Source: a virus
Taxonomy: Duplodnaviria; Caudoviricetes
DNA: 64,000 nucleotides
Reading direction: 5' to 3' (one strand)
Virus record (IMG/VR): IMGVR_UViG_3300005077_000489
Coordinates: 147,230 to 211,229 of that record
Shown: one piece after another, positions 40,176 to 57,815 of the stretch
How positions within the stretch are numbered: position 1 is the first letter of the stretch
How the letters are laid out: every line of letters begins with the position of its first letter
The notes under the pieces: generated by a model
The model's input: the letters and a program-made list of their open reading frames with translations, nothing else
What the model was told of the DNA's origin: nothing
The model's database searches: none
Program-made: the position numbers and the translations under genes

Positions 40176-40404
40176 ACCACGAAAACTAGAGAAGAATGGG
40201 CGGGCAGTTGGTCTACAACTCAAAAGTGGTATTAAAATTATAGGTGTGCTCAATGATCATTCCACTAATAAGTTAGTTGTAGAAGATTGGCTGGACCAAG
40301 ATTTAGTAAAGGAAGTACACAGAGCTACAATTGTAAGGATTATGGTTCTAATTGATGGAGGTAATAATGACGGAAAACTTAGAGTATACAAAAGAGCAAC
40401 CTAA
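40132..40404 (+). CDS. Putative Sm-fold (Hfq/LSm-like) protein
   Basis: AVGLQLKSGIKIIGVLND...KLVVED...KEVHRATIVRI aligns by eye with Hfq V-x-I-x-L-x-NG-x-x-L-x-G ... VYKHAISTV. Confidence 0.5.
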   Translation: MLEHELDKRITEKNKPRKLEKNGRAVGLQLKSGIKIIGVLNDHSTNKLVVEDWLDQDLVKEVHRATIVRIMVLIDGGNNDGKLRVYKRAT

Positions 40405-41713: not shown

Positions 41714-41733
41714 ATATAATAAAGAGGTTAGTA

Positions 41734-44690: not shown

Positions 44691-44869
44691 TGAATACTGA
44701 TGATGTGAGTAAACTAAAAGAGAGAATTAAAAATTTAGAAACTTTGTTGGCGGCTAAGCAAATTGAGTTAGATGCATCTGAGGAGCGGGTAGTTAATTTG
44801 GAAAAACGTATAGATGAATTAGTTGGAACATTTTGTGACTTGAACCAGCGTAGAAGAGGCTGCTACTAA
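44690..44869 (+). CDS. Small coiled-coil hypothetical protein
   Basis: Start moved to ATG 44690 (TAATG overlap, SD AAGGA); heptad pattern. Confidence 0.5.
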   Translation: MNTDDVSKLKERIKNLETLLAAKQIELDASEERVVNLEKRIDELVGTFCDLNQRRRGCY

Positions 44870-45759
44870 TGATTTCTATAATTACTTCATTAAGAAATAG
44901 AGCATTTTTATTGGATGTGAGTTTACATAGGATATGTGAAGAACTAGATTGGGGTCCACACAGTAAACTAGAAATTAATGTGGGAGGAGGTATTAGCGAA
45001 GACAACCTAGCTGAAGTACTTGCTAGGGTGAGTAGAACAAACACCGGTAGAACTGTAGTTTGTAAAAAATGGGACCTACCCAGAAGTAAAAGTGTGTATG
45101 CTCATCCTTTTAATTGCCCAGCCGAAGAGTATAACATTCTAGTTAAATTGGCTTCTTCAGAATATATACTAAAGATGGATGCAGAAATGTTTTTAGTGTC
45201 AGAAACATTTATTCCTGAAGCATATAAACTCATTACCAGTGGTAGTTACATTGTGATGCCTTTACCATTACACACTGAATATGCTCCTAGTAGTATTAAT
45301 GAAAGCTCCGATACTATAATTAAGTTATCTTTTGCTAATAAGTATAATACGCATATTAATCCTGCTAATGCACAAACCACTAATGTTTACTATATGGCAA
45401 TGTTTAAACGTACAGATTACTTAAATTTAGGTGGTGTAGATGAACGTTTTGTTGAGAATGGGATCGGGAGTGAAGATGATCATATGCTGTCTGAATGGCG
45501 TAGGGTTTATGGACAAGATAAAACTAGGACATTAACAGAGCACCGGGCGATTCACCAGTGGCATGGGGAATGGGGAAGAGGCGTTCCACAACACTTGCAC
45601 CGTTGGGTACAGGCTAATGCTAATCTTAGACATAAGCTGACAGGTCACAAACCTAACGAAGGTATAGAATGGGGTAGGTTGTATGAGCATATTACACTAA
45701 CAGAATGGCATAACGGGGAAAAGGTGATAGATAATAAATTGTTAGGGGAACTATTATGA
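44869..45759 (+). CDS. Glycosyltransferase, GT2/GT7C-like (GT-A)
   Basis: MISIITSLRNR...EYILKMDAE (DxD-like); LGGVDERF..GIGSEDD matches the GT7C/GT2 'GGFDERF.GWGxED' motif. Confidence 0.8.
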   Translation: MISIITSLRNRAFLLDVSLHRICEELDWGPHSKLEINVGGGISEDNLAEVLARVSRTNTGRTVVCKKWDLPRSKSVYAHPFNCPAEEYNILVKLASSEYILKMDAEMFLVSETFIPEAYKLITSGSYIVMPLPLHTEYAPSSINESSDTIIKLSFANKYNTHINPANAQTTNVYYMAMFKRTDYLNLGGVDERFVENGIGSEDDHMLSEWRRVYGQDKTRTLTEHRAIHQWHGEWGRGVPQHLHRWVQANANLRHKLTGHKPNEGIEWGRLYEHITLTEWHNGEKVIDNKLLGELL

Positions 45760-46760
45760 ATATTGTAATGATTACACCACCTTATGTGGACTCGGTTTCT
45801 ATGTCTGTAACGGATGGGTTGTTACAATTAGGGCATAGAGTTATTGACGGGCGTGGTTTGGGTTTGAACTATATGGAGTCCAAATCTAATCAAGTATTCG
45901 ATACTAATGACGAGTCTGAGGAATTAGATTTATATATCGCAGCAGATACGCACACGGCAGATTGTACAGCTAGTGAGTGGATGACTAAGGATATGAGATT
46001 AGTTAAGAAAATTATAATACATGGGCACGACCGCTGGTCTGGTTATGAAAATGCTCCTGATTGTTACGTGATCCCAGTAGACATGTCTTCGTGGATTGCT
46101 AAAGCGGTTTTTTACAGGGATTGGGACGGTAATCACCCAATTAAAATGTACGATGATAGACAAAGAATATTCAGGGGTGATTTTCCTATCTATCCTATAG
46201 ATTATGCAATTGAACGGAGATACCAAGAAACTTGTAATAAGCATATGAAGCCCTATAGTAAAAGAGAAAATAATGTGGTATTCTTCGGTACTCTATCCAC
46301 CGCCCGCCGAGGTTATTTCTTGGAGCGTTTATCTTCTAGTGTAGATAAGGTTGTTTATGATGCGTATCGCTTCAATACGCCCGATGGTAAATGGTCTAAG
46401 CACGTGTATGGTAGATATACACATGACAATGATTACTATAAAGAATTGTGCAACTCCAAGATGGTTTTTGCTCCGATGGGCGCGGGGTCTTCGTGCTTCA
46501 GACACATGGAAGCCTATGCTTCGGGAGCTATACCAGTTATACAAAGCTATCCTGCAGATATAGTAACACTACATAATTTTATTGATGGAGAGAATTGTAT
46601 CTTATGGTCAGATGAAAAGGAATTAATAGAAAAGGTCTCTTATTATTTGGATAACCCCGCGGAAGGAGAAGAACTGGCTGCTAAGGCATTTAAATACGGA
46701 CAAGAAAATTTAACTACGAAACATCTAGCAGAGTATATACTATCTAAATTGGAGTTTTAA
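45756..46760 (+). CDS. Glycosyltransferase, Glyco_trans_1_2 / exostosin(GT47)-like
   Basis: YYKELCNSKMVFAPMGAGSSCFRHMEAYASGAIPV...ELIEKVSYYLDNP. Confidence 0.75.
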   Translation: MNIVMITPPYVDSVSMSVTDGLLQLGHRVIDGRGLGLNYMESKSNQVFDTNDESEELDLYIAADTHTADCTASEWMTKDMRLVKKIIIHGHDRWSGYENAPDCYVIPVDMSSWIAKAVFYRDWDGNHPIKMYDDRQRIFRGDFPIYPIDYAIERRYQETCNKHMKPYSKRENNVVFFGTLSTARRGYFLERLSSSVDKVVYDAYRFNTPDGKWSKHVYGRYTHDNDYYKELCNSKMVFAPMGAGSSCFRHMEAYASGAIPVIQSYPADIVTLHNFIDGENCILWSDEKELIEKVSYYLDNPAEGEELAAKAFKYGQENLTTKHLAEYILSKLEF

Positions 46761-46762
46761 TC

Positions 46763-47692
46763 TTGAGATTTCAGTTATTTGGTACTCCCTACTATGAGTA
46801 CTGCCAAAGTACTTTAGCAGAGGGATTAAAAGAATTGGGTCATGAAGTATATGGGTGGAACGGGGAAACAACCAACTATAAAGATTTATATCAAGGGCAG
46901 GATATAGATGTCTTTATAAATGCTTTTCCGCACCCTAACAAAGGTGAGAAGATAATTAAGGAAGGTGTACCTAATATAATAATTTGGCCATACGATATTA
47001 GCGATAATTTACCTTTTGAATCGGCTAAGTACAGATTTACCGCAGCATTTGTAAGAGACTTGATGGTTAATCTAGGAAAAAGTGTGTTTCCTTTTAATTA
47101 TGGTATAGAAAACAGGTACTACTGTATAACAGATAAGATTAACAAACCACTAGCAGAGAGACCAATTGATGTGATATTTACTGGTGAAGCAGTAGGGAAA
47201 AGAGTGAGTTATATAAGATTATTACAAGAGCATTTTAAATCATTGAACTGCATGTTGGACTTCAGGAAATACAGTGGCTATCCTTACCAAAGTAAACCCA
47301 ATACCTATTGGTGCCAGTGGGTTAATGGTAGGTTTTGTCATTATGATGATTATTATGAGGCACTATCAGAATCTAAAATCGTACTAAGTTTAAACGGTTC
47401 TGGTCCTGAGTGCGGACGTCATTACGAAGCGTATGCGAGTGGCGGACTCCCCTTGATACAGAAGTCAGGCACTATACAGATAGAGCCTTCTATACCAACG
47501 AGGTTCCCTAATATCGTGTTTGATAGACCTGTAGAATTGTCGGATAAGATATCTTATTACTTGGGACATCTAGACGAGGCACAAAATTTAGCGAATCAGG
47601 TTTTTGAATTCGGAAGAAATAATTTACGTACAATACACAGAGCACAATATGTTTTGGATAAGTTACAGGAGGTTATAAGTGAAGCACGTTAG
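46763..47692 (+). CDS. Glycosyltransferase, Glyco_trans_1_2 / exostosin(GT47)-like (paralog of 45756)
   Basis: TTG start. RPIDVIFTG; YYEALSESKIVLSLNGSGPECGRHYEAYASGGLP...ELSDKISYYL. Confidence 0.75.
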   Translation: MRFQLFGTPYYEYCQSTLAEGLKELGHEVYGWNGETTNYKDLYQGQDIDVFINAFPHPNKGEKIIKEGVPNIIIWPYDISDNLPFESAKYRFTAAFVRDLMVNLGKSVFPFNYGIENRYYCITDKINKPLAERPIDVIFTGEAVGKRVSYIRLLQEHFKSLNCMLDFRKYSGYPYQSKPNTYWCQWVNGRFCHYDDYYEALSESKIVLSLNGSGPECGRHYEAYASGGLPLIQKSGTIQIEPSIPTRFPNIVFDRPVELSDKISYYLGHLDEAQNLANQVFEFGRNNLRTIHRAQYVLDKLQEVISEAR

Positions 47693-48356
47693 ACAAATAA
47701 TAGAAAGTAATAAAGGTATCGTAGATATCGTAGGAGATGATTCCTTGACCCATAAGGGTTTTAAATATCACAGTAGTTTTGATTTTACTGTTGATAAACT
47801 AGATAAGTTCTGTAATGTTATAAGATTACTGGAGGCAGAGTGTGGCGGAGATACGGTTATAGAATTGGGTTGTGGCTCGTCGGTCATGGCTACATGCTTG
47901 AAAGAGGAGACTTCTTATTTAGGTCTGGATGGTAATCCTGATGCAGGTATGTATGTCAAGGGTATGAATAAAGAGAACAAACACGTTATAGTTGTAGACT
48001 TTACTAAAGAATTTATGTTAGAGCCTACAGTTAAGGCAGATTTGCTTATTTCCTTTGATGTCTTCGAACATCTTCCTGAGGAAAAGATAGATTTTGTTAT
48101 TAAACAAGTGAGTCGTTTACTGAAGCCGAATGGCCTAGCTTTTTTCATAATAGATAGGCTTCCTCTCCAAGAACATATAACAATTAGGGACCTAAGTTGG
48201 TGGCAGAATAAATTTGAGACTATAAATAAGTGGCGTAGAATTGAATCAGAATCTTTTATGCAAGTGTTAAGGGAGAACCCTTGTGGGCATTGGGTACAAA
48301 ACATACAGTGGCATAATTATTTGCTCTACAGGGGTGATGGTAATGGGCTCTTTTAG
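47679..48356 (+). CDS. Class I SAM-dependent methyltransferase
   Basis: VIELGCGS; DLLISFDVFEHL; RLLKPNG. Confidence 0.85.
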   Translation: MKHVRQIIESNKGIVDIVGDDSLTHKGFKYHSSFDFTVDKLDKFCNVIRLLEAECGGDTVIELGCGSSVMATCLKEETSYLGLDGNPDAGMYVKGMNKENKHVIVVDFTKEFMLEPTVKADLLISFDVFEHLPEEKIDFVIKQVSRLLKPNGLAFFIIDRLPLQEHITIRDLSWWQNKFETINKWRRIESESFMQVLRENPCGHWVQNIQWHNYLLYRGDGNGLF

Positions 48357-49263
48357 TCTTAATGGTTTAGAATATACTTATCTGCATAACAACCCTAACC
48401 CTAATGCTAAGTACGGATTAGCAATTACGTTCTGGTACACTAATATGAATGAACTTATCTTCTTTTTGCAATTGATAAATAAGACGTGGCTAAATAGGGA
48501 TAAGATAGAAATTGCAATTTGTTCTTTCGCTGATTTAAGCCCTGCACAATACGAAGCGTGCGAACCTTTGTGCGAGAAGATTATTAAACCTAGCTTTAAT
48601 CCAGGAAAAGAATCCGGGACTACATCACACATGAATGGTGCTGTACATTCCCTTCTGCAGAACCCGAATTTGAAAACTATAACTCATGTTGACTCAGATG
48701 AAATAATCATTAACCACGCTTATTTCTTTGGTTATGCTAATATGCTATTAGACTCAGGTAAAGTTATGCTGAATACTCAAGAGACTTATTTGTATGATAT
48801 GCAAACTATGACTGAGTATAAAGTAGAGTACAAAGAAGATTGGACTAAAAGATTAAATCATTTCATGATCGTGAATACTGCTAAGATAGGTAATTATTTT
48901 CCGGTCAGGATGGCTGGTAATTTTCATAAAGATTTGTGGGATCACTTTGTAGACTCCGGGTTTACACATGATGATTTATTCTTACTGAAACGTGTAGTTA
49001 CTACTAATGATATACAACCTAATATGCTATATGGCTTTAATTTTCACTTAGGCAACGTACACGAATGTAATACTTGTGAGTGGCCGGAGAATGAGGATAG
49101 GAAAATACGGCTGTTAAGACTTATGTCAGTGCCTATATGGGATGATATAATCTTAGGATTCAAGTGGCACGTGAACAGAGAGTCCCCTGTACCTAATTAT
49201 AAGATCTCTAAGCAACCCCCATATGATGGTTATGACACTAATATGTACGATATAAGGAGATAA
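48343..49263 (+). CDS. Putative GT-A fold glycosyltransferase
   Basis: Start likely ATG 48343 (SD GGGGTG). NPGKESG...MNGAV...TITHVDSD (DxD); weaker similarity than the others. Confidence 0.5.
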   Translation: MGSFSLNGLEYTYLHNNPNPNAKYGLAITFWYTNMNELIFFLQLINKTWLNRDKIEIAICSFADLSPAQYEACEPLCEKIIKPSFNPGKESGTTSHMNGAVHSLLQNPNLKTITHVDSDEIIINHAYFFGYANMLLDSGKVMLNTQETYLYDMQTMTEYKVEYKEDWTKRLNHFMIVNTAKIGNYFPVRMAGNFHKDLWDHFVDSGFTHDDLFLLKRVVTTNDIQPNMLYGFNFHLGNVHECNTCEWPENEDRKIRLLRLMSVPIWDDIILGFKWHVNRESPVPNYKISKQPPYDGYDTNMYDIRR

Positions 49264-49265
49264 CA

Positions 49266-49979
49266 ATGACACTAGATGAAAAAATAAGAAGTTTAGTGGG
49301 TCAAGATACAATCGTCTTTAAAGACTCCAAAGAAGGTAATATATTGTTGGAGAATATACAAAAGTATGATAGCAAAATTTTTGATAATAAATTATTAATA
49401 AATAAATTTACAAAAAATACATTTTTGTATATGCAGGGATTATATAGGTTTACTAAGTGTATTCAGCCAGAATTAATTGTGGAACTCGGAGTTAGAGAAT
49501 CATACAGTAGTGTTAGTTTTTTAGAAGGCTTACGTGGAACGACAGGGAGACTAATAAGCTTCGATCCACAATTTATTGGTAATCCCTTACTTACTGATAC
49601 TTTGAAAAGTAAATGGACATATTACCCACTGTACGATTACGAGGGGTTCGACAAGTTTTCTTTATATATCACCAATATCGATGTCCTGTATATTGACATA
49701 GACCCACATGATAGAGAGGGTACTAGCAAAGTATTAAGGGAGGGCTTCATAACAAATATAAAAAGGGATGGTTATATACTATTAGATGATACGGCCCCAC
49801 AACATCAGCAAGAAGTTAACAACAGATACAATAATCTGTTTGATGTCGGAGCAAAATATGGAGTGTTGTCTTCTATTTTAGTTTTCATAGAAGAATATAG
49901 TGATAGTATCGAATTTGCATTTAGTATTAATAATAAGGACTCTAATGGATTAACTATTATTAAATATAAAAAATTGTGA
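49266..49979 (+). CDS. Class I SAM-dependent methyltransferase (Methyltransf_24-like)
   Basis: LIVELGVRESYSS...LISFDP...IDVLYIDIDPH...GYILLDDT. Confidence 0.8.
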   Translation: MTLDEKIRSLVGQDTIVFKDSKEGNILLENIQKYDSKIFDNKLLINKFTKNTFLYMQGLYRFTKCIQPELIVELGVRESYSSVSFLEGLRGTTGRLISFDPQFIGNPLLTDTLKSKWTYYPLYDYEGFDKFSLYITNIDVLYIDIDPHDREGTSKVLREGFITNIKRDGYILLDDTAPQHQQEVNNRYNNLFDVGAKYGVLSSILVFIEEYSDSIEFAFSINNKDSNGLTIIKYKKL

Positions 49980-49992
49980 GAGATTTATAGAT

Positions 49993-51000
49993 ATGGGTAA
50001 AAAAATATGGACCGACGAAGAAAAATTATTATTAAAGAAATACTTTCCTACCACCTCAACGAATGATTTGGTGTTAATCCTTAATAATAGATATCCTTGT
50101 AAACAAATTAGATATAAGGCTTATAGTATGGGTTTGCAGAGGGATGAAAACCTCTTTATATACGGGCACACCAGGAGAAAGGATATATTAAATTTCTCTG
50201 TGGTTGATACTGAAGAAAAGGCTTATATATTGGGATTCATAGCGGCAGATGGGGCATTAGTAGAGAAAAAGAACTCCTCTTCTGTCCTATCAATAAAATT
50301 ACATAAGAGAGACCTACTACATCTTGAAAAAATTAGGGACATAATTTGTCCTAGTTTGAGTATTTATCATACTGTGCGTGATAATTGTTGCGGTATTAGG
50401 CTTGGCGATCCTCTATTATCAAATGAATTATTTAAACATGGAATTATACATAGAAAAACGTACAATCCGCAAATTCCTGGGACTGTTCCTGATCATTTAA
50501 TTAAACATTGGATACGTGGTTACTTTGACGGTGATGGTTCTGTTTATCATTTAAAGAATAATTATGATAAGATTTTTTGTCACATAACAGGATACAGTAA
50601 AAGTAACAATAATATCTTGTTAGATTTTATTCATGATACTTTTGTATCTCATATGAACAGAGAGAAAATATGTGATTGTAACCCCAGCAGGAGTCAACGT
50701 AAAGATACGGTTAGGATTTCTTATTCGCATAATAAGTCTATTTGTTTTTTGCAGTGGATATACAAAGATGCTACCATATATTTAGGTAGAAAATATGACA
50801 AAGTATTGCCTTTTATGTCTACTCCTCCCGATTGTAAAAGATGTGGTACCAGAGGGAAGTCTTATGCTTCCAAGAAATTATGGACGGATGAGGAAATCCT
50901 TCTATTAACATCCAATAAGGACATGCCTGTGGATTACTTGCTATCTATAATAGATCGGTCCAAAGAAGCCATCATGCGTAAATTAAGAGGCTTAAAATAA
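49993..51000 (+). CDS. Free-standing LAGLIDADG homing endonuclease with Myb/HTH-like WTDEE repeats
   Basis: KAYILGFIAADG and WIRGYFDGDGSV (two LAGLIDADG helices); WTDEEKLLL and WTDEEILLL at the two ends. Confidence 0.88.
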   Translation: MGKKIWTDEEKLLLKKYFPTTSTNDLVLILNNRYPCKQIRYKAYSMGLQRDENLFIYGHTRRKDILNFSVVDTEEKAYILGFIAADGALVEKKNSSSVLSIKLHKRDLLHLEKIRDIICPSLSIYHTVRDNCCGIRLGDPLLSNELFKHGIIHRKTYNPQIPGTVPDHLIKHWIRGYFDGDGSVYHLKNNYDKIFCHITGYSKSNNNILLDFIHDTFVSHMNREKICDCNPSRSQRKDTVRISYSHNKSICFLQWIYKDATIYLGRKYDKVLPFMSTPPDCKRCGTRGKSYASKKLWTDEEILLLTSNKDMPVDYLLSIIDRSKEAIMRKLRGLK

Positions 51001-51001
51001 T

Positions 51002-51757
51002 ATGCAGTATTATTGTGTGATAAGCATTCCTAAATGTGGGACTTATCTAATTAATAGTGTTCTTTCCAGTCTTTTTGATGTTACATATAGTAGTAGATTT
51101 GTGTTTGGTACAGCTGGTATTGCTGAAGTAGATAAAAGTTTAAAGGTGAATCCCCCTGTGACTAAGCACCAACATCAAGGGATATTAACACATATGTACT
51201 ATAGTAACGAGAGCCTGAGTGAAATGCTGAACCGCGGCTATAAAATAATTTTTATATATAGACATCCTTTTGATGCCGCTGTCTCTTTTGTAGAGGGAGC
51301 GATAAAAAGAATATTCCATGATCCTATGGCAAAATATATGATTACTAAATTAAAAAAATCTAACGAGGACAAATACTTTGCTTTGCTACGCGGGGTTCCG
51401 AAGATAAAACACCCAAATGCTGTGGGTCTTAAAGAGATGTATTTAAAACGTTTAGGGTGGATGGATTCAGATAAGATAATACATATAAAATATGCTGACC
51501 TCGTAGGTGAGGCTTTTGGTGGTAGTAATGAAGGGCAGCAGGAAGTTGTAAAGAGAATGTCCTCTTATTTAGAAATACCGGACGTACAGATTATAGAGGC
51601 ATTAAAAAATTCTATAGGTGTGGAATCAAAGACAGCTAAGACGTTCAGGAAAGGAACTGTAGGTCAGTGGCGTAATGTGTTTACTGATAGATTAAAATAT
51701 GAATATAATCGAGAGTTAGAAGAAATATTGAACCTTCTATATCCTATAGAAGAATAG
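51002..51757 (+). CDS. PAPS-dependent sulfotransferase (Sulfotransfer_1/SULT-like)
   Basis: SIPKCGT (5'-PSB loop), YRHPFDAAVS (3'-PB), FRKGTVGQW (RKGxxGxW). Confidence 0.88.
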   Translation: MQYYCVISIPKCGTYLINSVLSSLFDVTYSSRFVFGTAGIAEVDKSLKVNPPVTKHQHQGILTHMYYSNESLSEMLNRGYKIIFIYRHPFDAAVSFVEGAIKRIFHDPMAKYMITKLKKSNEDKYFALLRGVPKIKHPNAVGLKEMYLKRLGWMDSDKIIHIKYADLVGEAFGGSNEGQQEVVKRMSSYLEIPDVQIIEALKNSIGVESKTAKTFRKGTVGQWRNVFTDRLKYEYNRELEEILNLLYPIEE

Positions 51758-51768
51758 AGGAGTCTACT

Positions 51769-52314
51769 ATGATCGGAAACATTTTTTGGATTTGGGGTTT
51801 ATCCGGCTCAGGAAAGACTACTTTAGGTTATAGGTTAGCCAAGGAACTAGGTTTTCTTTTTCTGGATTCTGATATCGTCAGGAAAGTTCTACATTCTCCA
51901 GTGGACTTTAGTAAAGAGGGACGTCTTGCCTATCAAGAAACGTTGAGAGCACACGTGGAAGAATTACAGTATCTAGAAAACAATATTGTAGTAGCATCTA
52001 TAACACCCTTGCAGCAGATGCGAAACCTTAATAGGATGCGGTTTGATAATTATTTTGAAGTATATTTGAAGTGTGATATACCCACATTAATTGTCCGTGA
52101 TCCTAAAGGTTTGTATCGCAAAGCTTTGGACGGCGTATTGCAAAATTTTACCGGTATCTCTGGTACGTTCGAACAACCCGCCAACGATATAGGCGATGAA
52201 AATAGTATACCAGATTTAGTTATAGATACCACCGATGAGGAAAACCATAGTTACGATAAGTTATACAAGGCTGTCCTTAAGTTCACAAATTGTAGAAAAG
52301 TTGTTAATCAATAA
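51769..52314 (+). CDS. cysC: Adenylyl-sulfate (APS) kinase
   Basis: WIWGLSGSGKTT; LDSDIVR; EVYLKC...RDPKGLYRKA...NFTGIS..FEQP. Confidence 0.93.
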   Translation: MIGNIFWIWGLSGSGKTTLGYRLAKELGFLFLDSDIVRKVLHSPVDFSKEGRLAYQETLRAHVEELQYLENNIVVASITPLQQMRNLNRMRFDNYFEVYLKCDIPTLIVRDPKGLYRKALDGVLQNFTGISGTFEQPANDIGDENSIPDLVIDTTDEENHSYDKLYKAVLKFTNCRKVVNQ

Positions 52315-52333
52315 GATAGGAGGTCGTCTAAAT

Positions 52334-53062
52334 ATGCATCTTGATAATAGAATAATTAAATATACAGCTATACAACCTAATGATAGAGTTGTTTTTATGC
52401 ATGTACCTAAAGCTGCTGGTACATCGTTCTGCGTCATCTTGGAGGAGGTTTATAAAGAGAAATTTTTCAATATTGCTCCTTTCATCCCGACTACGTGGGA
52501 GCCATACTTACCGAAAGGGCTTAATCAATTTCAAGCTTTGGCTGGTCATTTTAGTATTGGCAACGGTGAAATCTATGAAATGTTCGACGGTCCTTTTGTA
52601 CATCTAACGATGTTTAGGGACCCAGTAGAAAGAGTCCTATCAGCTTATAATTATATCTTAATACATCCTGCTCACCACCAACATGAACTAATAGCAAACC
52701 GTGGTTTAGCAGAGATTTATAAGAATAATGAAGCTTATAGATTTATGTTTAAAAATTTACAAGTCCTCTTCCTGTCTGGTGCCCCTAGACCAACCAGGAG
52801 TGATTTAGAGATAGCCAAAGAGAATCTTGAGAAGTATTTCAGTATCTTCGGGTTCGTGGAGGATAATCAATGGTTCATAGACATACTCAACAAAAAGTTT
52901 GGGTGGCAGGAAGAACAAAAATTTAATAACATTAGTCAATATGATAAGTCCATCTTTTCTGTCAGGGATTTAATAGCAGAAAATAATGAATTAGATTTAG
53001 AATTATATGATTACGCTTTAAAATTATATAACAAACGTAAGGACGAGAATTATTATGGGTAA
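52334..53062 (+). CDS. PAPS-dependent sulfotransferase (Sulfotransfer_2, carbohydrate-sulfotransferase type)
   Basis: Start moved to ATG 52334 (SD GGGAGGT). FMHVPKAAGTS and TMFRDPVERVLSAY. Confidence 0.85.
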   Translation: MHLDNRIIKYTAIQPNDRVVFMHVPKAAGTSFCVILEEVYKEKFFNIAPFIPTTWEPYLPKGLNQFQALAGHFSIGNGEIYEMFDGPFVHLTMFRDPVERVLSAYNYILIHPAHHQHELIANRGLAEIYKNNEAYRFMFKNLQVLFLSGAPRPTRSDLEIAKENLEKYFSIFGFVEDNQWFIDILNKKFGWQEEQKFNNISQYDKSIFSVRDLIAENNELDLELYDYALKLYNKRKDENYYG

Positions 53063-53579
53063 ATATGGGATGTCTGAGACCGATAAGGTCAGGGATGTAC
53101 TTGCTAAGTTTTGTGTTGGTAACGGATTAGATTTGGGTTTTGGTGGCTCTGCTATTTTGCCTACTGCAATAACAGTGGACATGATAGGCGGTGCTTATAC
53201 TAATTTTAATGATGATGTTCAAAATTTGCAGGGGGATGCACGGGACTTATATTGGTTTCAAAATAATGTTTTAGATTATGTGTATTCTTCTGCATTACTA
53301 GAAGATTTTCCTCCAGAAGACACCTTGTGGGTTATGAAAGAATGGTTGCGTGTATTAAAGGTAGGTGGTAATTTAGTTTTGTACTTACCTGATGAAAAGG
53401 CTTATCAAGATTGGTATGAAAAAGCAGGGGAAGTTGCCAATCCAGGTCACCAAAACCATGACTTAAATCTAGAGTGGTTCAAAAAGCATATTGTTAGTAA
53501 ATTAAATGTAGAAATTATACATGAAAATCCTTTATCCGGGGGCTATATGTTTGAGATAGTCTTGAGGAGGTTAGCATGA
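53055..53579 (+). CDS. Class I SAM-dependent methyltransferase (Methyltransf_11-like)
   Basis: GLDLGFGG; LDYVYSSALLED; EWLRVLKVGG. Confidence 0.85.
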   Translation: MGKYGMSETDKVRDVLAKFCVGNGLDLGFGGSAILPTAITVDMIGGAYTNFNDDVQNLQGDARDLYWFQNNVLDYVYSSALLEDFPPEDTLWVMKEWLRVLKVGGNLVLYLPDEKAYQDWYEKAGEVANPGHQNHDLNLEWFKKHIVSKLNVEIIHENPLSGGYMFEIVLRRLA

Positions 53580-54163
53580 GTTTAGAGTTTATAGATTTAT
53601 ATAAAGATGTAGTGAATAATACTGTGTTAACCCCAGATAGACTGTGGCATTTGTGGGTCAATGCTAGAACTAGGGTGGGCATAGAAGGAGCCATGGCAGA
53701 GTGTGGTACTTTCAGAGGTGGCTCCGCCTACCTGTTATACAAGGCTGTCCATGGTGCTAAAAGACTACACGTTTTTGATACTTTTGAGGGAATTCCTAGT
53801 GAGCAAAGATTAGATGGAGAGCACTCACCTGGAGATTTTTCGTGTGATTATGATACAGTAAAAAGTTTTTTATCTTCGTGCGGTGGGGTGATATTACATA
53901 AAGGCCTCGTCCCCGCCAGTTTGGTTGCTGTAAGAAGAGAAACTTTTAATTTGGTCCATTTAGACATGGATTTGTACGAACCAACTTATGAGGCATTAAA
54001 ATTCTTTTGGAATAGAATGTCTGTAGACGGGGTTATAATCCTAGATGATTGGGAAAGTTTATTTGGTATAAACGATGCAGTAGAGAAGTTTGCTAGTGAG
54101 CAGGACAAAAAAATTAAGTATATGAAAACTACCGTTATGCAATGTATGCTAATTAAGGAGTAA
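53576..54163 (+). CDS. TylF/MycF/NovP-family sugar O-methyltransferase
   Basis: EGAMAECGTFRGGS; VFDTFEG; VHLDMDLYEPT; GVIILDDW. Confidence 0.9.
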   Translation: MSLEFIDLYKDVVNNTVLTPDRLWHLWVNARTRVGIEGAMAECGTFRGGSAYLLYKAVHGAKRLHVFDTFEGIPSEQRLDGEHSPGDFSCDYDTVKSFLSSCGGVILHKGLVPASLVAVRRETFNLVHLDMDLYEPTYEALKFFWNRMSVDGVIILDDWESLFGINDAVEKFASEQDKKIKYMKTTVMQCMLIKE

Positions 54164-54168
54164 GTCAA

Positions 54169-54615
54169 ATGACCATGTATTGGTGGGATATAAGAATGAC
54201 AGAGAAAGGTTGCATAAGAAATTTTCGTGGTACGAAAGTTGATAAAAAATTTATTAAAGAACATCCGTGGATTCCTAGGATATTTTATGATAGACATAGC
54301 GTAGCAGGATGGGATAGTAATTATATGGACCCAGAATATACTATACAATTTTTTTGTGATGATACAGATATTAATGTTATTTTACCCGCAGCATGGGGAA
54401 TGTGGAATAATGCAAATACCTATGCCATGGAGATAGAAGCTTTACGTTTATATCTAAAAGAGATGAAAACTAATGTTAATGCTGCTATATTCTTGAAGAA
54501 GGAAGCTATGAAACGTTGGGGAGAATGGTTGGGGGATACAGAGAACTTAGAGGAAGACATTGTTGGTTGGGAAGAAAGGGTCGATAAGAAATTAAGTGAG
54601 TGGAGGAATAGATAA
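54169..54615 (+). CDS. Hypothetical protein
   Basis: 148 aa, SD AAGGAG. Confidence 0.6.
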   Translation: MTMYWWDIRMTEKGCIRNFRGTKVDKKFIKEHPWIPRIFYDRHSVAGWDSNYMDPEYTIQFFCDDTDINVILPAAWGMWNNANTYAMEIEALRLYLKEMKTNVNAAIFLKKEAMKRWGEWLGDTENLEEDIVGWEERVDKKLSEWRNR

Positions 54616-54617
54616 AT

Positions 54618-55577
54618 ATGAAGATTTTAATTACCGGAGGGGCTGGATTTCTCAGTAATATAATTATTAGAGACCTCTTAAAAAGAGAGGATGTAGAAAG
54701 GGTTGTGGTTGTAGACTCTTTGGAGTATAAAGTAAATACTTTCTGGGATGTTTGTGATGACCTCCGTTTTCATTTTATAAGAGCAGATATATTGAGTCAA
54801 CCAGAGTTAATGGAAGATTTGTATAGAGAAGCTGATGTTATTATTCCTGCTGCAGGACCTGTAGGATATCCTAAATCAAGTTTTTATAAAGTAAATACTT
54901 GGGCTTTGAACCATGCTACAATAGTTGATATGCTACTTGATATACGTAATCTGAATAAACGTGTTATTTATCTTAATTCAAATTCTGGATATGGTATTAG
55001 ACCCGGCGAACAGATTACTGAGGATATGCCATTAAATCCCATATCGGAATATGGTCGCTCTAAGGTTGCTGCAGAAGCAGTAGTATTATCGGAATCCCAA
55101 GTTTCACTTAGATTGGGCACAGTTGCTGGAGTTAGTCCTTGTATGCGTTTGGATTTATTAACCAACGATTTTGTTTTCCGAGCGGTTAAGGACAATGTCA
55201 TCACCATTTTTCAAGGTGCCGCATCTAGAAATATAGTGGGTATAAAAGATGTTAGTAAGGCTGTAATGTTTGGGATAGATAATTTTGAGCAAATGAGAGG
55301 AAGACCTTTTAACGTGGGTGAAATAAATATAACTAAGTTAGAGTTGGCTAAGAAAATTTCAGAGTATACGGGATGCCATGTAGTAGAAGCTGAGTTTGCT
55401 GCAGATAAAGATAAAAGAGATTATAAAATTGATTGTCAGGCAATTAAAGATTTAGGTTTTAATTTTGACCAGGATTTAGATTCCTTAATTCAACAGTTAA
55501 TAAAATTTTATTCTACTATTTCTCTAACATCTGGTAATGTAAGGTTCGAGAATAATGAGTTTATGTGTTTGGTATAG
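54618..55577 (+). CDS. NAD-dependent sugar epimerase/dehydratase (extended SDR)
   Basis: ILITGGAGFL; NSNSGYG; YGRSK (YxxxK); RLDL.NDFV. Confidence 0.9.
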   Translation: MKILITGGAGFLSNIIIRDLLKREDVERVVVVDSLEYKVNTFWDVCDDLRFHFIRADILSQPELMEDLYREADVIIPAAGPVGYPKSSFYKVNTWALNHATIVDMLLDIRNLNKRVIYLNSNSGYGIRPGEQITEDMPLNPISEYGRSKVAAEAVVLSESQVSLRLGTVAGVSPCMRLDLLTNDFVFRAVKDNVITIFQGAASRNIVGIKDVSKAVMFGIDNFEQMRGRPFNVGEINITKLELAKKISEYTGCHVVEAEFAADKDKRDYKIDCQAIKDLGFNFDQDLDSLIQQLIKFYSTISLTSGNVRFENNEFMCLV

Positions 55578-55733
55578 TTATCTCTATTAGTAGTGTGCGA
55601 TAATTAAAAAAAGAATATTGGAGCCAAGATCATACATTGGCATTGGTCTATAGATGATACTATTGAGCAACTAATAAAATTTTATAAGAGTGTCTCGTTA
55701 TCATCTAGTAATTTATTTTATGAAAATTGGTAG
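55578..55733 (+). pseudogene. Vestigial 3' end of a second epimerase allele
   Basis: Frame from 55578 reads LSLLVVCDN*KKNIG...WSIDDTIEQLIKFYKSVSLSSSNLFYENW*, paralleling the upstream gene's tail DLDSLIQQLIKFYSTISLTSGNVRFEN. One in-frame TAA, no start codon. Confidence 0.65.
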
Positions 55734-55740
55734 AAATATA

Positions 55741-55776
55741 TAGTAGAGATGAATTTGTGTACTATATATTATATAG
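55741..55776 (+). promoter_or_regulatory. Phage promoter/operator motif, copy B (TAGAGA-N17-TATTAT)
   Basis: TAGTAGAGATGAATTTGTGTACTATATATTATATAG directly precedes SD GGAGG of 55786; shared with 31569 and 31715. Confidence 0.6.
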
Positions 55777-55785
55777 GAGGTCAGT

Positions 55786-56145
55786 ATGCCTTATACCATG
55801 TGGAGTGTTTGTACTTATTGTGAACGCCGTTATGTAAACTATAACGATTGGTGTGAATTATTAGATATGGACTTCATATTATGTCACGAAAGTGGGTTAC
55901 CGCAGGAAAAGAATATAACAGAGTGCATTGGTTGCGAGCTAGCAGCGTGGGAAGAGGATACGGACCTTGAATATATAGATGACCTATTTATAATGGACGG
56001 AGACGGTGAAGATGAATATGAGTGGAAAGAGTGTACAGACGGACATGAGTCTAGTAATTGTGGAGAACACGAAAGTAACTTGTCAGAGTTGCTTATACAG
56101 TCAAGATATGACCGGTGGAGGGACGGGGACTTCTTCCCGTGGTAA
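55786..56145 (+). CDS. Small acidic Cys-rich hypothetical protein
   Basis: SD GGAGG; CTYC, C, C, CIGC motifs. Confidence 0.55.
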   Translation: MPYTMWSVCTYCERRYVNYNDWCELLDMDFILCHESGLPQEKNITECIGCELAAWEEDTDLEYIDDLFIMDGDGEDEYEWKECTDGHESSNCGEHESNLSELLIQSRYDRWRDGDFFPW

Positions 56146-56302
56146 AGTGATCTATTGTTGCCTGAACCCCGAGCCCGTAATGAAGGAAGCAAAACAATTC
56201 TGCGGGCAGGGGTTATGGTTGATCGAAGGTGAACTTTATGTTTTTAAGGAAGCCTTTATGAAGATATATAGGAGGGGTGAAGATGAGTCAATGGAGAGAT
56301 GA
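56045..56302 (+). CDS. Small Cys-rich hypothetical protein (overlaps 55786 ORF)
   Basis: TCQSCLY...YCCLNP...FCGQG pattern typical of small phage metal-binding proteins. The start may be 56006 or 56045. Confidence 0.4.
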   Translation: MSLVIVENTKVTCQSCLYSQDMTGGGTGTSSRGKVIYCCLNPEPVMKEAKQFCGQGLWLIEGELYVFKEAFMKIYRRGEDESMER

Positions 56303-56987
56303 TTGGGGTGGTAGCGTTAATTACGGAAATAAAAATGAAGTTCTAATTAATGTTATCCTAGATAAATCCGGCTCGATGTATGATGATCAGATTGATACTA
56401 TTAATTCTTTTAATAGTTTTTTTAATGAATTTAAAACAGAAGATGGGATAGATTATAAGGCTACATTAACATTATTTGATACTAATGTTACTACATTATT
56501 TCAAAATGTACCTGTAAAAGATATTCCTAAACTAGATACTACTAATTATTGTCCGGATGGGATGACTGCACTATATGATGCTGTGGGCAGAACTATAAAG
56601 AATGTAGGCGAGCCCGCACAGGATACTAGGGTGTTTATGCTAATTATAACTGATGGACAAGAGAACTCTTCTTTGGAATGGAGCAGAGAGGGAATAAAGA
56701 AGTTAATAGAAGAAAAAACAGAGTTACCTAATTGGACATTTACTTTCTTAGGCACTGGTATAGATGCTTGGGCTGGCGGAGGTTCCCTAGGTGTTGGTTA
56801 CGGTAACATCGCTACTTGGAACGGTGGTAATACAGTAAGTGGTATGGCTTGTAACTTAGCACGTTCTGTAAAATATTATTCTGGTATTACTTTGGATAGT
56901 TTTGTTGCAGAAAAGAGTTCGTATTTTAAAGGGGCTACAAATCTGTCCAATGCCGATACTTGGCAAGCAGACACGGAGGACAAATAA
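56283..56987 (+). CDS. von Willebrand factor A (vWA) domain protein
   Basis: Start ATG 56283 (SD GGAGG). ILDKSGSM (MIDAS DxSxS), GMTALYDA, IITDGQENSS. Confidence 0.88.
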   Translation: MSQWRDDWGGSVNYGNKNEVLINVILDKSGSMYDDQIDTINSFNSFFNEFKTEDGIDYKATLTLFDTNVTTLFQNVPVKDIPKLDTTNYCPDGMTALYDAVGRTIKNVGEPAQDTRVFMLIITDGQENSSLEWSREGIKKLIEEKTELPNWTFTFLGTGIDAWAGGGSLGVGYGNIATWNGGNTVSGMACNLARSVKYYSGITLDSFVAEKSSYFKGATNLSNADTWQADTEDK

Positions 56988-57012
56988 TGGTATCAGGGAG
57001 TAATAGAATTAG

Positions 57013-57801
57013 ATGCCTAGACAATGGTTAAAATGGACAGAAAACGACAGGATTACCCTGACTCAAGTATACTCAAATTTATCAAAAGAAGATATACAGA
57101 AATTGCTGCCGTCCCGTTCTTGGGGGAGTATAAAAACTTATGCTCGTAGTTTAGGATTATCAAGAAATAGGATTCCAAAGACAAAGTGTATATTAGATTT
57201 TTCTAAAGTAGACTCTGAGGAGAAGGCTTATTTAATAGGTTTTATAGCTGCTGACGGTAATATATCAAAAAGAACAGCTAATCGTAGGCTGAAAACTTTA
57301 AATATCTCTTTAGCTGAGAAAGATGAGGCGCATCTTAAATTGTTGAGGAATTTATTATGCCCTAATTCTGTAATAAGAAAATGTAGGAAGAGAATTGGAC
57401 AAAATATGTACGAGTTTAGTTTGTGGGATACAGAAACATGCGATTCATTGATTAAATTAGGTATAGTCCCAAATAAAAGCAAAATTCTAAGACTACCGGA
57501 TATAGATAATTTTTTATTTATGGATTATCTTAGAGGTTACTTCGACGGAGATGGTTCTTTTTATACGGATAAAAGTAATATATTACATGCAGAGTTGGTA
57601 AGTGGTTCTGAATTGTTTCTCGCTGATATTAATGAAAAATTGAAATTATTTCTAGGACTTTCCTCAACTATAACTAAGTGTAAAACCGCTTTCAGACTAC
57701 GTTATTATAATAATAATGCAATAATTTTGGCTAAAGGATTATATGCTAATGCTACGATTTCTTTAGATAGAAAATATAATATTATTAAAAATTTTATATA
57801 A
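57013..57801 (+). CDS. Free-standing LAGLIDADG homing endonuclease (paralog of 49993)
   Basis: KAYLIGFIAADG and YLRGYFDGDGSF; N-terminal WTENDRITL. Confidence 0.88.
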   Translation: MPRQWLKWTENDRITLTQVYSNLSKEDIQKLLPSRSWGSIKTYARSLGLSRNRIPKTKCILDFSKVDSEEKAYLIGFIAADGNISKRTANRRLKTLNISLAEKDEAHLKLLRNLLCPNSVIRKCRKRIGQNMYEFSLWDTETCDSLIKLGIVPNKSKILRLPDIDNFLFMDYLRGYFDGDGSFYTDKSNILHAELVSGSELFLADINEKLKLFLGLSSTITKCKTAFRLRYYNNNAIILAKGLYANATISLDRKYNIIKNFI

Positions 57802-57815
57802 AGGAGATTATAAAT

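What the first reader, a model, noticed from the sequence alone, without database searches (positions are those of the whole stretch)
51002..53062. Compact PAPS module: APS kinase sandwiched by two unrelated sulfotransferase families
Seen: SULT-type (PKCGT...RKGxxGxW), cysC and Sulfotransfer_2-type (HVPKAAGTS...RDPVER..S) genes in tandem; no ATP sulfurylase in this window. Known: CysC converts APS to PAPS, the donor for both families, and dissimilatory sulfate reducers make abundant APS but do not need PAPS for respiration. Inference: phage cysC here is not an assimilatory 'auxiliary metabolic gene' but a donor supply for sulfation, possibly tapping a sulfate-reducing host's APS pool.
Basis: partly seen in the sequence, partly recalled or inferred. 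Interest (0 to 1): 0.75.

Follow-up and report, generated by a model that had tools for sequence, protein, structure and literature searches.

The report
Phage PAPS kinase feeding two sulfotransferases
An uncultured 211-kb phage carries an APS kinase wedged between two sulfotransferases inside a sugar-chain-building gene island, and a survey shows such pairs are common in phages. Phage 'cysC' genes therefore mostly seem to supply the sulfate donor for sulfating something (probably a glycan), not to help the host make cysteine.

Summary
ST1 (51002-51757, SULT-like), an APS kinase (51769-52314) and ST2 (true start 52334, to 53062; heparan-sulfate-2-O/6-O-sulfotransferase-like fold) form a tight co-oriented trio with all cofactor and catalytic motifs intact. 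The trio sits in a ~23-kb island of glycosyltransferases, O-methyltransferases and sugar-nucleotide enzymes.

The whole 211-kb record has no ATP sulfurylase, CysD or PAPS reductase. The same is true of the complete 545-kb relative. The module is syntenic in relatives.

Of 50 CysC-carrying IMG/VR records, 34 encode a sulfotransferase, and in 21 it lies within 5 kb of cysC. Only 2 of 49 random viral records encode one. Only 4-5 of the 50 have a PAPS-reductase-like gene and 1 has a sulfurylase.

The core reading therefore holds and generalises: cysC here is a PAPS supply for sulfation, not an assimilatory AMG. The held literature still counts phage cysC as assimilatory. Earlier notes of this scan had already seen CysC-sulfotransferase cassettes on other phage DNA.

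Three points are not supported:
- The two families are not "unrelated" (profile-profile probability 95%).
- A sulfate-reducing host is untested; the host is unknown.
- The acceptor is unknown. A cytoplasmically built glycan, possibly on virion proteins, is the best guess.

The parts
51002..51757 (+). ST1: cytosolic-SULT-like PAPS-dependent sulfotransferase (251 aa)
   Evidence: PF00685 E 1.9e-7. P10, K11, G13, T14, H64, R87, S95, R216, G218 and W223 are invariant or nearly so among phage orthologues and 45 homologues. The AF2 model has pLDDT 92.8, and its best PDB folds are SULT7A1 and SULT1E1 with PAP, TMq up to 0.66.
51769..52314 (+). CysC: APS kinase (181 aa), member of a phage-specific clade
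   Evidence: PF01583 E 3.6e-25. Best solved relatives are archaeal APS kinases 8a8h and 2yvu. The P-loop, D33/D35 (LDSD), R38, R52 and the RDPKGLY..FTGI lid are invariant in 33 sequences. Clade members are 46-64% identical; no cellular CysC exceeds 41%.
52334..53062 (+). ST2: carbohydrate-type sulfotransferase (242 aa; the longest ORF starts at 52235)
   Evidence: PF03567 E 1.8e-9. H23, K26, G29, H72, R95 and S103 are invariant in 43 sequences. The AF2 model has pLDDT 93.2, and its top PDB folds are heparan sulfate 2-O- and 6-O-sulfotransferases, TMq about 0.6. The RBS supports the 52334 start.
49993..51000 (+). LAGLIDADG homing endonuclease inserted directly upstream of ST1
   Evidence: PF14528. 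HNH or LAGLIDADG genes occupy the same position in relatives L006, L008 and one 27.6-kb contig.
53055..54163 (+). Two SAM methyltransferases (Methyltransf_11; TylF-type sugar O-methyltransferase) directly downstream
   Evidence: PF08241 E 6.5e-7; PF05711 E 2.9e-18. The same ST2-TylF/MT-epimerase order occurs in L008, L009 and L010.
54618..55577 (+). NAD-dependent sugar epimerase/dehydratase
   Evidence: PF01370 E 6.7e-24.
40352..63567 (+). Surrounding glycan island. It holds 2 GT4, 2 Glyco_trans_1_2, a GNAT/Mom-like protein, 5 methyltransferases, 4 SDR epimerases/dehydratases, an HldC/TagD-like nucleotidyltransferase, an HddC-like nucleotidyltransferase, an HddA-like kinase and 2 homing endonucleases
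   Evidence: No protein in it has a convincing transmembrane segment.

Best explanation
The trio is a phage-borne sulfation module.

1. The host's own ATP sulfurylase makes APS. This is inferred, because the phage encodes none.
2. The phage APS kinase phosphorylates APS to PAPS.
3. Two distantly related PAPS-dependent O-sulfotransferases, one SULT-like and one HS-2-O/6-O-ST-like, move the sulfate onto two different positions of an acceptor.
4. The by-product PAP is left to host phosphatases.

The acceptor is most likely a sugar chain built in the cytoplasm. Neighbouring phage glycosyltransferases would build it from phage-made nucleotide sugars (a heptose/deoxy-sugar arm), and the adjacent O-methyltransferases would decorate it. 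Its carrier is unknown; virion proteins are the leading guess.

Carrying only the kinase makes sense. APS is made by every sulfate-assimilating or sulfate-respiring cell, whereas PAPS is scarce, or not made at all in hosts that reduce APS directly.

Shown: gene order, family membership, intact motifs, folds, synteny, and the statistical linkage of cysC to sulfotransferases across phages. Inferred: the enzyme activities, the source of APS, and the glycan acceptor and its carrier.
For: Identity of the three enzymes:
- Pfam hits.
- Conserved cofactor and catalytic residues in alignments of phage orthologues and wider homologues.
- Confident models whose best solved matches are PAP-bound sulfotransferases and APS kinases.

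Operon-like packing with individual RBSs.

Context:
- A 23-kb island of GTs, MTs and sugar-nucleotide enzymes.
- A GT2-ST1-type fusion among ST1 homologues.

No assimilatory partners:
- No PF01747 or PF01507 in the 211-kb record.
- None in the 100%-complete 545-kb relative G001.

Synteny. ST1-CysC-ST2 or ST-CysC occurs in L008, L009, L010, L013 and two further contigs.

Generality:
- Of 50 CysC-carrying IMG/VR records, 34 have a sulfotransferase family match, against 2 of 49 random records (Fisher p 6e-12).
- Size-matched at 25-130 kb the figures are 17/27 against 2/34 (p 2e-6).
- After dereplication at 60% CysC identity, 21 of 28 clusters are positive.
- A sulfotransferase lies within 5 kb of cysC in 21/50 records, against about 0.8 expected.
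- Direct ST-CysC adjacency was verified by Pfam in four unrelated loci.
Against: - No activity, product or acceptor has been shown.
- CysC scores below NCBIfam's equivalog cut-offs (96 against 138.7 bits). It has LDSD for LDGD and Tyr where canonical enzymes have the Asn of ENIRR. The solved archaeal APS kinases it matches best also lack that Asn.
- The record is only 86% complete, so a sulfurylase could lie in the missing part.
- The survey used the 50 best of 270 confirmed loci. Its records are partly related and larger (median 90 kb) than the controls (35 kb).
- No phage PAP phosphatase was found.
Confidence: 0.75

Rival explanations
1. Classical auxiliary metabolic gene: the phage cysC boosts the host's assimilatory sulfate reduction (more PAPS for CysH, then sulfide and cysteine) during infection. 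The sulfotransferases are unrelated passengers.
For: This is how phage cysC is interpreted in the literature (PMC10914622 and bioRxiv 10.1101/2021.01.05.425418). A minority of CysC phages do carry PAPS_reduct-family genes: G010, G012, G014 and G024.
Against: - This genome and its complete relative have no cysH, cysD or sat.
- cysC sits 11 and 19 nt from two PAPS consumers.
- The ST linkage is conserved in the clade and enriched across phages.
- The PAPS_reduct genes in the survey are 10-50 kb from cysC and occur in ST-negative records.
Confidence: 0.05
2. One reading: the host is a dissimilatory sulfate reducer, and the kinase-only design exists to tap its large respiratory APS pool.
For: - The phage lacks a sulfurylase.
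- The closest large relative is held by a 'sediment metagenome' run.
- One low-ranking DnaJ look-alike cluster is Thermodesulfobacteriota. This is a lead only.
Against: - No host assignment was possible. TerL is only about 25% identical to Bacillus, Clostridium and Microcystis phages.
- The best cellular CysC hits are scattered over many phyla at 41% identity or less.
- Kinase-only CysC-ST modules are widespread: 49 of 50 surveyed records lack a sulfurylase match above the family cut-off.
- Published phage cysC genes are mainly marine or freshwater and are transcribed under oxic conditions. Any sulfate-assimilating host supplies APS.
Confidence: 0.1
3. The CysC-like protein has drifted to another phosphoryl acceptor, such as a sugar or nucleotide of the glycan pathway, and the sulfotransferases rely on host PAPS.
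For: It scores below the NCBIfam equivalog cut-offs. The clade has its own substitutions (LDSD, GR for DR, no ENIRR) and is more than 55% diverged from all cellular CysC.
Against: - All residues invariant across bona fide APS kinases in the alignment are kept, including the APS-kinase-specific lid.
- The best PDB matches are APS kinases only, down to E 1e-10. The shikimate kinase matches have E >= 2e-4.
- Canonical CysC genes in unrelated phages show the same linkage to sulfotransferases.
Confidence: 0.07
4. Sulfation is real but the acceptor is not a glycan. It could be DNA, a small molecule, or protein tyrosine (RaxST-like).
For: - The acceptor is unknown.
- A Mom-like/GNAT protein lies in the island.
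- ST1's nearest folds are small-molecule SULTs.
Against: - ST2's nearest folds are carbohydrate sulfotransferases.
- The module is embedded among GTs, sugar O-MTs and nucleotide-sugar enzymes.
- A GT2-ST1 fusion exists among the homologues.
- The genome has no thymidylate-synthase-like hydroxymethylase for hm-pyrimidine DNA glycosylation.
Confidence: 0.15

Closest known systems
Bacterial 'sulfation cassettes' with a dedicated PAPS supply. One example is the adipostatin adp operon: adpST + adpP1 (APS kinase) + adpP2/P3 (sulfate adenylyltransferase); PMC12135136. From my own knowledge, rhizobial nodPQ-nodH and Xanthomonas raxPQ-raxST are further examples.
   Same: A sulfotransferase is genetically coupled to its own APS kinase, so that a specialised product can be sulfated independently of the cys regulon.
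   Different: The phage keeps only the kinase step and has no ATP sulfurylase. It serves two sulfotransferases of different families. It lies in a viral glycan island, not in a bacterial BGC or nod locus.
Phage 'cysC AMGs' as described in viromics (COBRA, PMC10914622; Kieft et al. preprint 10.1101/2021.01.05.425418)
   Same: The gene family is the same, and it is found mostly in large aquatic phages. One reported case is a 210-kb lake phage that expresses cysC.
   Different: Those papers assign cysC to assimilatory sulfate reduction and never mention sulfotransferases (0 occurrences). Here the genomic context and the survey point to sulfation.
Mycobacteriophage virion glycosylation loci (Freeman et al. 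2023, as cited in PMC12619734)
   Same: Phage-encoded soluble GTs plus O-methyltransferases build glycans in the cytoplasm on capsid and tail proteins without any export machinery.
   Different: Those loci have no sulfotransferase or PAPS enzyme. Here the carrier protein is not identified.
Heparan sulfate 2-O- and 6-O-sulfotransferases (4ndz, 3f5f, 5t03) and cytosolic SULTs (5x2b SULT7A1, 1hy3 SULT1E1)
   Same: Same fold and the same 5'-PSB, 3'-PB and catalytic His layout.
   Different: Sequence identity is 14-22%. The phage proteins are minimal soluble domains of about 250 aa, and their acceptor specificity is unknown.
Archaeal APS kinases (M. thermolithotrophicus 8a8h; A. pernix 2yvu)
   Same: These are the best sequence matches among solved structures (E 1e-23 and 6e-22). 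They share the P-loop, the Asp pair, the Arg residues and the lid, and they likewise lack the canonical ENIRR Asn.
   Different: The phage clade has LDSD for LDGD and is virus-specific.

Membership tests
APS kinase (CysC, PF01583, EC 2.7.1.25) | Walker A P-loop GxxGxGK[ST] | tested here: met
   GLSGSGKTT at residues 9-17; S12, G15, K16 and T18 are invariant in 33 sequences.
APS kinase (CysC, PF01583, EC 2.7.1.25) | LDGD motif with its two Asp, and the downstream Arg | tested here: met
   LDSD, with D33, D35 and R38 invariant. The Gly is Ser or Ala in the phage clade.
APS kinase (CysC, PF01583, EC 2.7.1.25) | FSxxDRxENIRR: the phosphosulfate-binding Arg and Asn | tested here: inconclusive
   The Arg (R52) is invariant. 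The Asn position is Tyr here and Tyr/Phe/His in the clade. The solved archaeal APS kinases 8a8h and 2yvu have His there.
APS kinase (CysC, PF01583, EC 2.7.1.25) | Mobile lid RDPKGLY..A..G....FTGI | tested here: met
   R110, D111, P112, K113, G114 and Y116 are invariant; F127, T128 and G129 are nearly so.
APS kinase (CysC, PF01583, EC 2.7.1.25) | Curated family score thresholds | tested here: inconclusive
   The Pfam gathering score is passed (89.2 against 21.1 bits). The NCBIfam equivalog and subfamily cut-offs are not reached (96-103 against 127-139 bits).
APS kinase (CysC, PF01583, EC 2.7.1.25) | Catalysis of APS + ATP -> PAPS + ADP | not testable with these tools
   Needs an enzyme assay or cysC complementation.
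Sulfotransfer_1 (PF00685, cytosolic-SULT-like) | 5'-phosphosulfate-binding loop PKxGT | tested here: met
   SIPKCGTY; P10, K11, G13 and T14 are conserved.
Sulfotransfer_1 (PF00685, cytosolic-SULT-like) | 3'-phosphate-binding Arg...Ser and the C-terminal RKGxxGxW | tested here: met
   R87 and S95 are invariant. R216, G218, G221 and W223 are conserved.
Sulfotransfer_1 (PF00685, cytosolic-SULT-like) | Catalytic His | tested here: met
   H64 is invariant in 46 sequences.
Sulfotransfer_1 (PF00685, cytosolic-SULT-like) | Sulfotransferase fold | tested here: met
   The model has pLDDT 92.8. Against SULT7A1 with PAP the TMq is 0.62-0.66, E 8e-9.
Sulfotransfer_2 (PF03567; HS2ST/HS6ST/Gal-3-O-ST-like) | 5'-PSB HxPKxxGT and 3'-PB RDPxxRxxS | tested here: met
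   H23, K26, G29, R95, P97 and S103 are invariant in 43 sequences.
Sulfotransfer_2 (PF03567; HS2ST/HS6ST/Gal-3-O-ST-like) | Catalytic His (GH) | tested here: met
   H72 is invariant and G71 nearly so.
Sulfotransfer_2 (PF03567; HS2ST/HS6ST/Gal-3-O-ST-like) | Carbohydrate-sulfotransferase fold | tested here: met
   The model has pLDDT 93.2. The top matches are HS 2-O-ST 4ndz (E 3e-8, TMq 0.61) and HS 6-O-ST 5t03/5t05.
Dedicated sulfation cassette (nodPQH / raxPQ-raxST / adp type) | Sulfotransferase adjacent to its own APS kinase | tested here: met
   The gaps are 11 and 19 nt, and the arrangement is conserved in relatives.
Dedicated sulfation cassette (nodPQH / raxPQ-raxST / adp type) | Own ATP sulfurylase (Sat or CysD/CysN) | tested here: not met
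   There is no PF01747 or PF01507 match in the 211-kb record or in the complete 545-kb relative. The island's HxGH nucleotidyltransferase looks HldC/TagD-like (HFGH, LKGSSTS).
Assimilatory sulfate-reduction AMG set | PAPS/APS reductase (cysH) or other downstream assimilatory genes alongside cysC | tested here: not met
   PF01507 is absent. Sulfite reductase and cysK were not searched.

The most novel reading that the evidence does not exclude
This lineage of huge phages makes, entirely in the host cytoplasm, a sulfated and O-methylated heptose/deoxy-sugar glycan that it attaches to its own virion, for example to the giant lectin-bearing fibres or the capsid. This would be the first sulfated glycoconjugate made by a prokaryotic virus. 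More generally, most 'cysC AMGs' counted in viromes would report virus-directed sulfation and not sulfur assimilation.
Probability: 0.3. Interest if true: 0.8.

Novelty: new variant of a known kind. Interest (0 to 1): 0.6.

Why it matters
Phage cysC is routinely tallied as an assimilatory sulfur-cycling AMG, and ecosystem-level conclusions are drawn from it. If two thirds of cysC phages carry sulfotransferases, often next door, those tallies measure something else: a virus-encoded capacity to sulfate glycans or other molecules.

Published work states that the role of phage sulfotransferases is unclear (PMC10580990). Sulfated, methylated glycans on virions or infected cells could affect adsorption, shielding from defences or grazers, and particle stickiness in sediments and water.

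The module is small and soluble, so it is directly testable in vitro.

Tried and rejected
- **Single-sequence CysC scan.** The search for related loci with the single CysC sequence found nothing. An alignment was needed.
- **Sequencing runs.** For the window's module none was listed, and no RNA holder was listed. For the 545-kb relative, two 'sediment metagenome' runs were listed, one with a small share that I did not lay.
- **Host assignment.** TerL is only about 25% identical to Bacillus, Clostridium and Microcystis phages. The DnaJ look-alikes are mostly viral. No cellular genome holds a CysC more than 41% identical. No CRISPR-spacer resource was available.
- **Proteins after cysC in L006 and L011.** The 190-195-aa proteins there are not sulfotransferases.
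- **148-aa ORF at 54169-54615.** It is not homologous to the 149-aa ORF after ST2 in L008, so no synteny is claimed for it.
- **Family searches of the own genome that found nothing.** Sulfotransfer_3, CysQ-type PAP phosphatase PF00459, phosphoglycosyl transferase PF02397, thymidylate-synthase-like hydroxymethylase PF00303.
- **Island HxGH nucleotidyltransferase as a hidden ATP sulfurylase.** Its motifs and its NCBIfam hits (RfaE domain II, TagD) fit a sugar-phosphate nucleotidyltransferase, and it lies 8 kb from cysC. I rejected the idea as unlikely but did not exclude it.
- **Moraphage paper (PMC12619734).** It describes a different, contractile-tailed lineage and does not mention sulfur genes.
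- **Complex prediction and read laying.** Not used; no binding or expression claim is made.
Full report
**What is there.**
The window is the last 64 kb of a 211,229-bp IMG/VR viral record, linear and estimated 86% complete by CheckV. The record is a tailed phage. It has a large terminase, a portal and tail genes and giant ORFs of up to 13,616 aa.

At the stated coordinates there are three co-oriented genes:
- ST1, 51002-51757, 251 aa, Pfam Sulfotransfer_1, E 1.9e-7.
- An APS kinase, 51769-52314, 181 aa, PF01583, E 3.6e-25.
- ST2, Sulfotransfer_2, E 1.8e-9.

The longest ST2 ORF begins at 52235, inside cysC. The ATG at 52334 has an AGGAGG 8 nt upstream and equals the 242-aa gene call on record. 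The genes are therefore separated by 11 and 19 nt and do not overlap.

**Are the enzymes intact?**
*CysC.* It keeps the P-loop, both Asp of the LDGD motif (here LDSD), Arg38, Arg52 and the RDPKGLY..FTGI lid. All of these are invariant in a 33-sequence alignment that includes cellular enzymes. Its best solved relatives are APS kinases only, led by the archaeal 8a8h and 2yvu.

It falls below NCBIfam's equivalog cut-offs, and it has Tyr where canonical enzymes have the Asn of ENIRR. The two archaeal structures also lack that Asn.

*ST1.* It has the 5'-PSB loop (PKCGT), the catalytic His64, the 3'-PB Arg87/Ser95 and the RKGxxGxW motif. These are conserved in its phage orthologues and in 45 homologues.

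*ST2.* It has HxPKxxGT, the GH His72 and RDPxxRxxS, invariant in 43 sequences.

*Folds.* AlphaFold models are confident, with pLDDT 92.8 and 93.2. The ST1 model matches PAP-bound cytosolic SULTs (TMq up to 0.66). The ST2 model matches heparan sulfate 2-O- and 6-O-sulfotransferases (TMq about 0.6).

The two families are not unrelated. Their profiles align at 94.9% probability over the cofactor-binding half.

**Context.**
The trio lies in a ~23-kb co-oriented island (window 40.3-63.6 kb) with these contents:
- Two GT4 and two Glyco_trans_1_2 glycosyltransferases.
- A GNAT/Mom-like protein.
- Five SAM methyltransferases, including a TylF-type sugar O-methyltransferase.
- Four SDR epimerases/dehydratases.
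- HddA-like, HddC-like and HldC/TagD-like sugar-activating enzymes.
- Two LAGLIDADG homing endonucleases.

None of these proteins has a convincing transmembrane segment. The whole genome has no flippase- or polymerase-like multi-pass protein and no phosphoglycosyl transferase. It also has no thymidylate-synthase-like hydroxymethylase. The island therefore looks like cytoplasmic assembly of a decorated glycan on a soluble acceptor.

**No assimilatory partners.**
The whole record has no ATP sulfurylase and no PAPS_reduct-family (CysD/CysH) match at E<=1. It has no CysQ either. The closest large relative is a 545-kb record rated 100% complete, with CysC 64% identical. It also has neither a sulfurylase nor a PAPS_reduct match.

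**Relatives.**
The CysC belongs to a distinct clade of about 25 metagenomic proteins at 46-64% identity. The next hits are cellular CysC at 41% or less. Among 185,579 species genomes, none holds anything closer than 41%.

Contigs carrying clade members show the same island and the same linkage:

| Contig | Arrangement |
|---|---|
| L008, 149 kb | ST1-CysC-(63 aa)-ST2-...-MT-epimerase |
| L009 | ST1-ST1-CysC-ST2-TylF-epimerase...RNase HII-NTP transferase-GHMP kinase |
| L010 | CysC-ST2-TylF |
| 114-kb contig | ST2-CysC-GT...ST2 |
| 48-kb contig | ST2 5 kb downstream of CysC |
| L013 | ST1 upstream of CysC and two ST2 directly downstream |

Homing endonuclease genes recur immediately upstream of the module.

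**Is the linkage general?**
A CysC alignment retrieved 270 confirmed loci from IMG/VR. I searched 50 of the best 80 records whole.

| Family | Records with a match (of 50) |
|---|---|
| Sulfotransfer_2 | 19 |
| Sulfotransfer_1 | 20 |
| Sulfotransfer_3 | 15 |
| At least one of the three | 34 (68%) |
| PAPS_reduct | 5 (4 above cut-off, all in ST-negative records, 10 kb or more from cysC) |
| ATP sulfurylase, above cut-off | 1 |

As a control I took 49 IMG/VR records hit by an arbitrary 14-mer. Two of them had a sulfotransferase, and neither of those two had CysC. Comparisons between the CysC set and this control:

| Comparison | Result |
|---|---|
| All records, Fisher test | p = 6e-12 |
| Records of 25-130 kb only | 17/27 against 2/34, p = 2e-6 |
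| Dereplicated at 60% CysC identity | 21 of 28 clusters positive |
| Records at least 90% complete (tallied from the tables) | 11 of 15 positive |
| Sulfotransferase within 5 kb of cysC | 21 records (7 within 1 kb); about 0.8 expected from the control density of 1.6 ST genes per Mb |

Pfam scans of four unrelated loci confirmed direct pairs:
- ST1/3-CysC-HNH-LicD-ST4-like.
- Radical SAM-ST2-CysC-GT2-GT2.
- A TPR-Sulfotransfer_3 fusion next to CysC.
- ST2-CysC between a 3,100-aa ORF and a DUF4376 tail-fibre-type gene.

Caveats. The 50 records are the best-scoring subset. Some share ancestry. They are larger than the controls. IMG/VR contains some misclassified DNA.

**Interpretation.**
The best reading is a sulfation module. 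Host-made APS is converted by the phage kinase to PAPS, which two sulfotransferases spend on two positions of an acceptor. The acceptor is most likely the glycan made by the surrounding genes.

The evidence for a glycan acceptor is:
- ST2's carbohydrate-sulfotransferase fold.
- The island itself.
- A GT2-ST1-type fusion among the homologues.

The carrier is not identified. By analogy with mycobacteriophage virion glycosylation (cited in PMC12619734), and given the lack of export genes, virion proteins are the leading guess, at perhaps 35-40%.

The kinase-only design needs no special host. Every sulfate-assimilating or sulfate-respiring cell makes APS, while PAPS is scarce or absent where APS is reduced directly. 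This last point is from general knowledge.

**The sulfate-reducer idea.**
I could not assign a host. A relative occurs in a sediment metagenome. A low-ranked DnaJ look-alike cluster is Thermodesulfobacteriota. Neither is evidence of host.

Published phage cysC genes are mainly marine or freshwater, and in one lake they out-express bacterial cysC under oxic conditions. I rate the sulfate-reducer host at about 10%.

**Comparison with what is known.**
Sulfotransferases coupled to a dedicated PAPS supply are known in bacteria. One example is the adipostatin operon, which pairs adpST with an APS kinase and both sulfurylase subunits (PMC12135136). nodPQ-nodH and raxPQ-raxST are further examples from my own knowledge.

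The phage version differs in three ways. It drops the sulfurylase, it serves two sulfotransferase families, and it sits in a viral glycan island.

In the searchable literature I found no paper linking phage cysC to sulfotransferases:
- The two papers that analyse phage cysC most fully treat it as assimilatory and never mention sulfotransferases.
- A 2023 paper states that the role of phage sulfotransferases is unclear.
- Viral sulfotransferases are widely annotated, in cyanophages, phiRSL1 and giant viruses.

Within this scan, CysC-sulfotransferase cassettes had already been noted on other phage DNA: 64 notes in at least 57 genomes. The idea is therefore not new to the scan. My survey is an independent test that agrees with those notes.

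**Verdict.**
- Observation: confirmed.
- Interpretation: partly supported. The core is right. The host speculation is untested, and 'unrelated' is wrong.
- Novelty: a new variant of a known kind of system.
- Interest: moderate to high, because it changes how a commonly counted viral 'AMG' should be read and because it is easy to test at the bench.

Noticed in passing
L005:1465-2442 (G000:C1:71744-72721, outside the window): A third, 325-aa Sulfotransfer_2-like gene (E 2e-3, below cut-off) lies just upstream of the tail and tape-measure genes. It keeps the Lys and the GH His, but the 3'-PB motif is degenerate (Arg to Gln, Ser to Ala). It may be a non-catalytic or divergent relative.
   Followed up: partly
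window 49993-51000; L006:6728-7998; L008:4964-5524: Homing endonuclease genes (LAGLIDADG or HNH) sit immediately upstream of ST1 or CysC in this phage and in several relatives. The module may be a hot spot for homing-endonuclease insertion and mosaic exchange.
   Followed up: no
L294:12032-13063 (G000:C1:32032-33063): A 343-aa protein gives a strong match to Pfam Volactin, an actin homologue described in haloarchaea (E 6.6e-60). This is unexpected in a phage that otherwise has bacterial-type replication genes.
   Followed up: no
L294:63-941:- (G000:C1:20063-20941): A 292-aa protein has a weak DHH-family N-terminal match (E 1.3e-4, below cut-off). NrnA-type DHH enzymes can hydrolyse pAp, so it could remove the sulfotransferase by-product. 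This is a lead only.
   Followed up: no
L293:365-1480:- and L293:17169-18035:-: A TnpB/IS605 OrfB-type gene lies at the left end of the record, and there is a caspase-domain (Peptidase_C14) protein.
   Followed up: no
window 42915-44690: A 591-aa island protein has a weak GNAT match. Its counterpart in L009 carries a weak Mom-family hit. Mom modifies DNA adenine, so a nucleic-acid target for part of the island is not excluded.
   Followed up: no
L017:11-14468: In an unrelated 92-kb phage, ST2-CysC sits between an ORF of at least 3,100 aa and a DUF4376 tail-fibre-type gene. This hints that in some phages sulfation is tied to tail fibres.
   Followed up: partly
L057:8355-9917: A TPR-repeat::Sulfotransfer_3 fusion of 520 aa lies directly upstream of CysC in another phage. 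TPR domains suggest a protein acceptor or partner.
   Followed up: no
G000:C1:74903-115753, 124195-138420; window 5309-10987, 13653-29566: There are giant ORFs of 13,616, 4,741, 1,892, 3,141 and 2,187 aa. The largest has been treated by other reports of this scan. The 1,892-aa ORF had no Pfam match.
   Followed up: no
P0266 (metagenomic homologue of ST1): A 573-aa protein fuses a GT2 glycosyltransferase to an ST1-type sulfotransferase. Other homologues are tandem double or triple sulfotransferases of 550-990 aa.
   Followed up: partly
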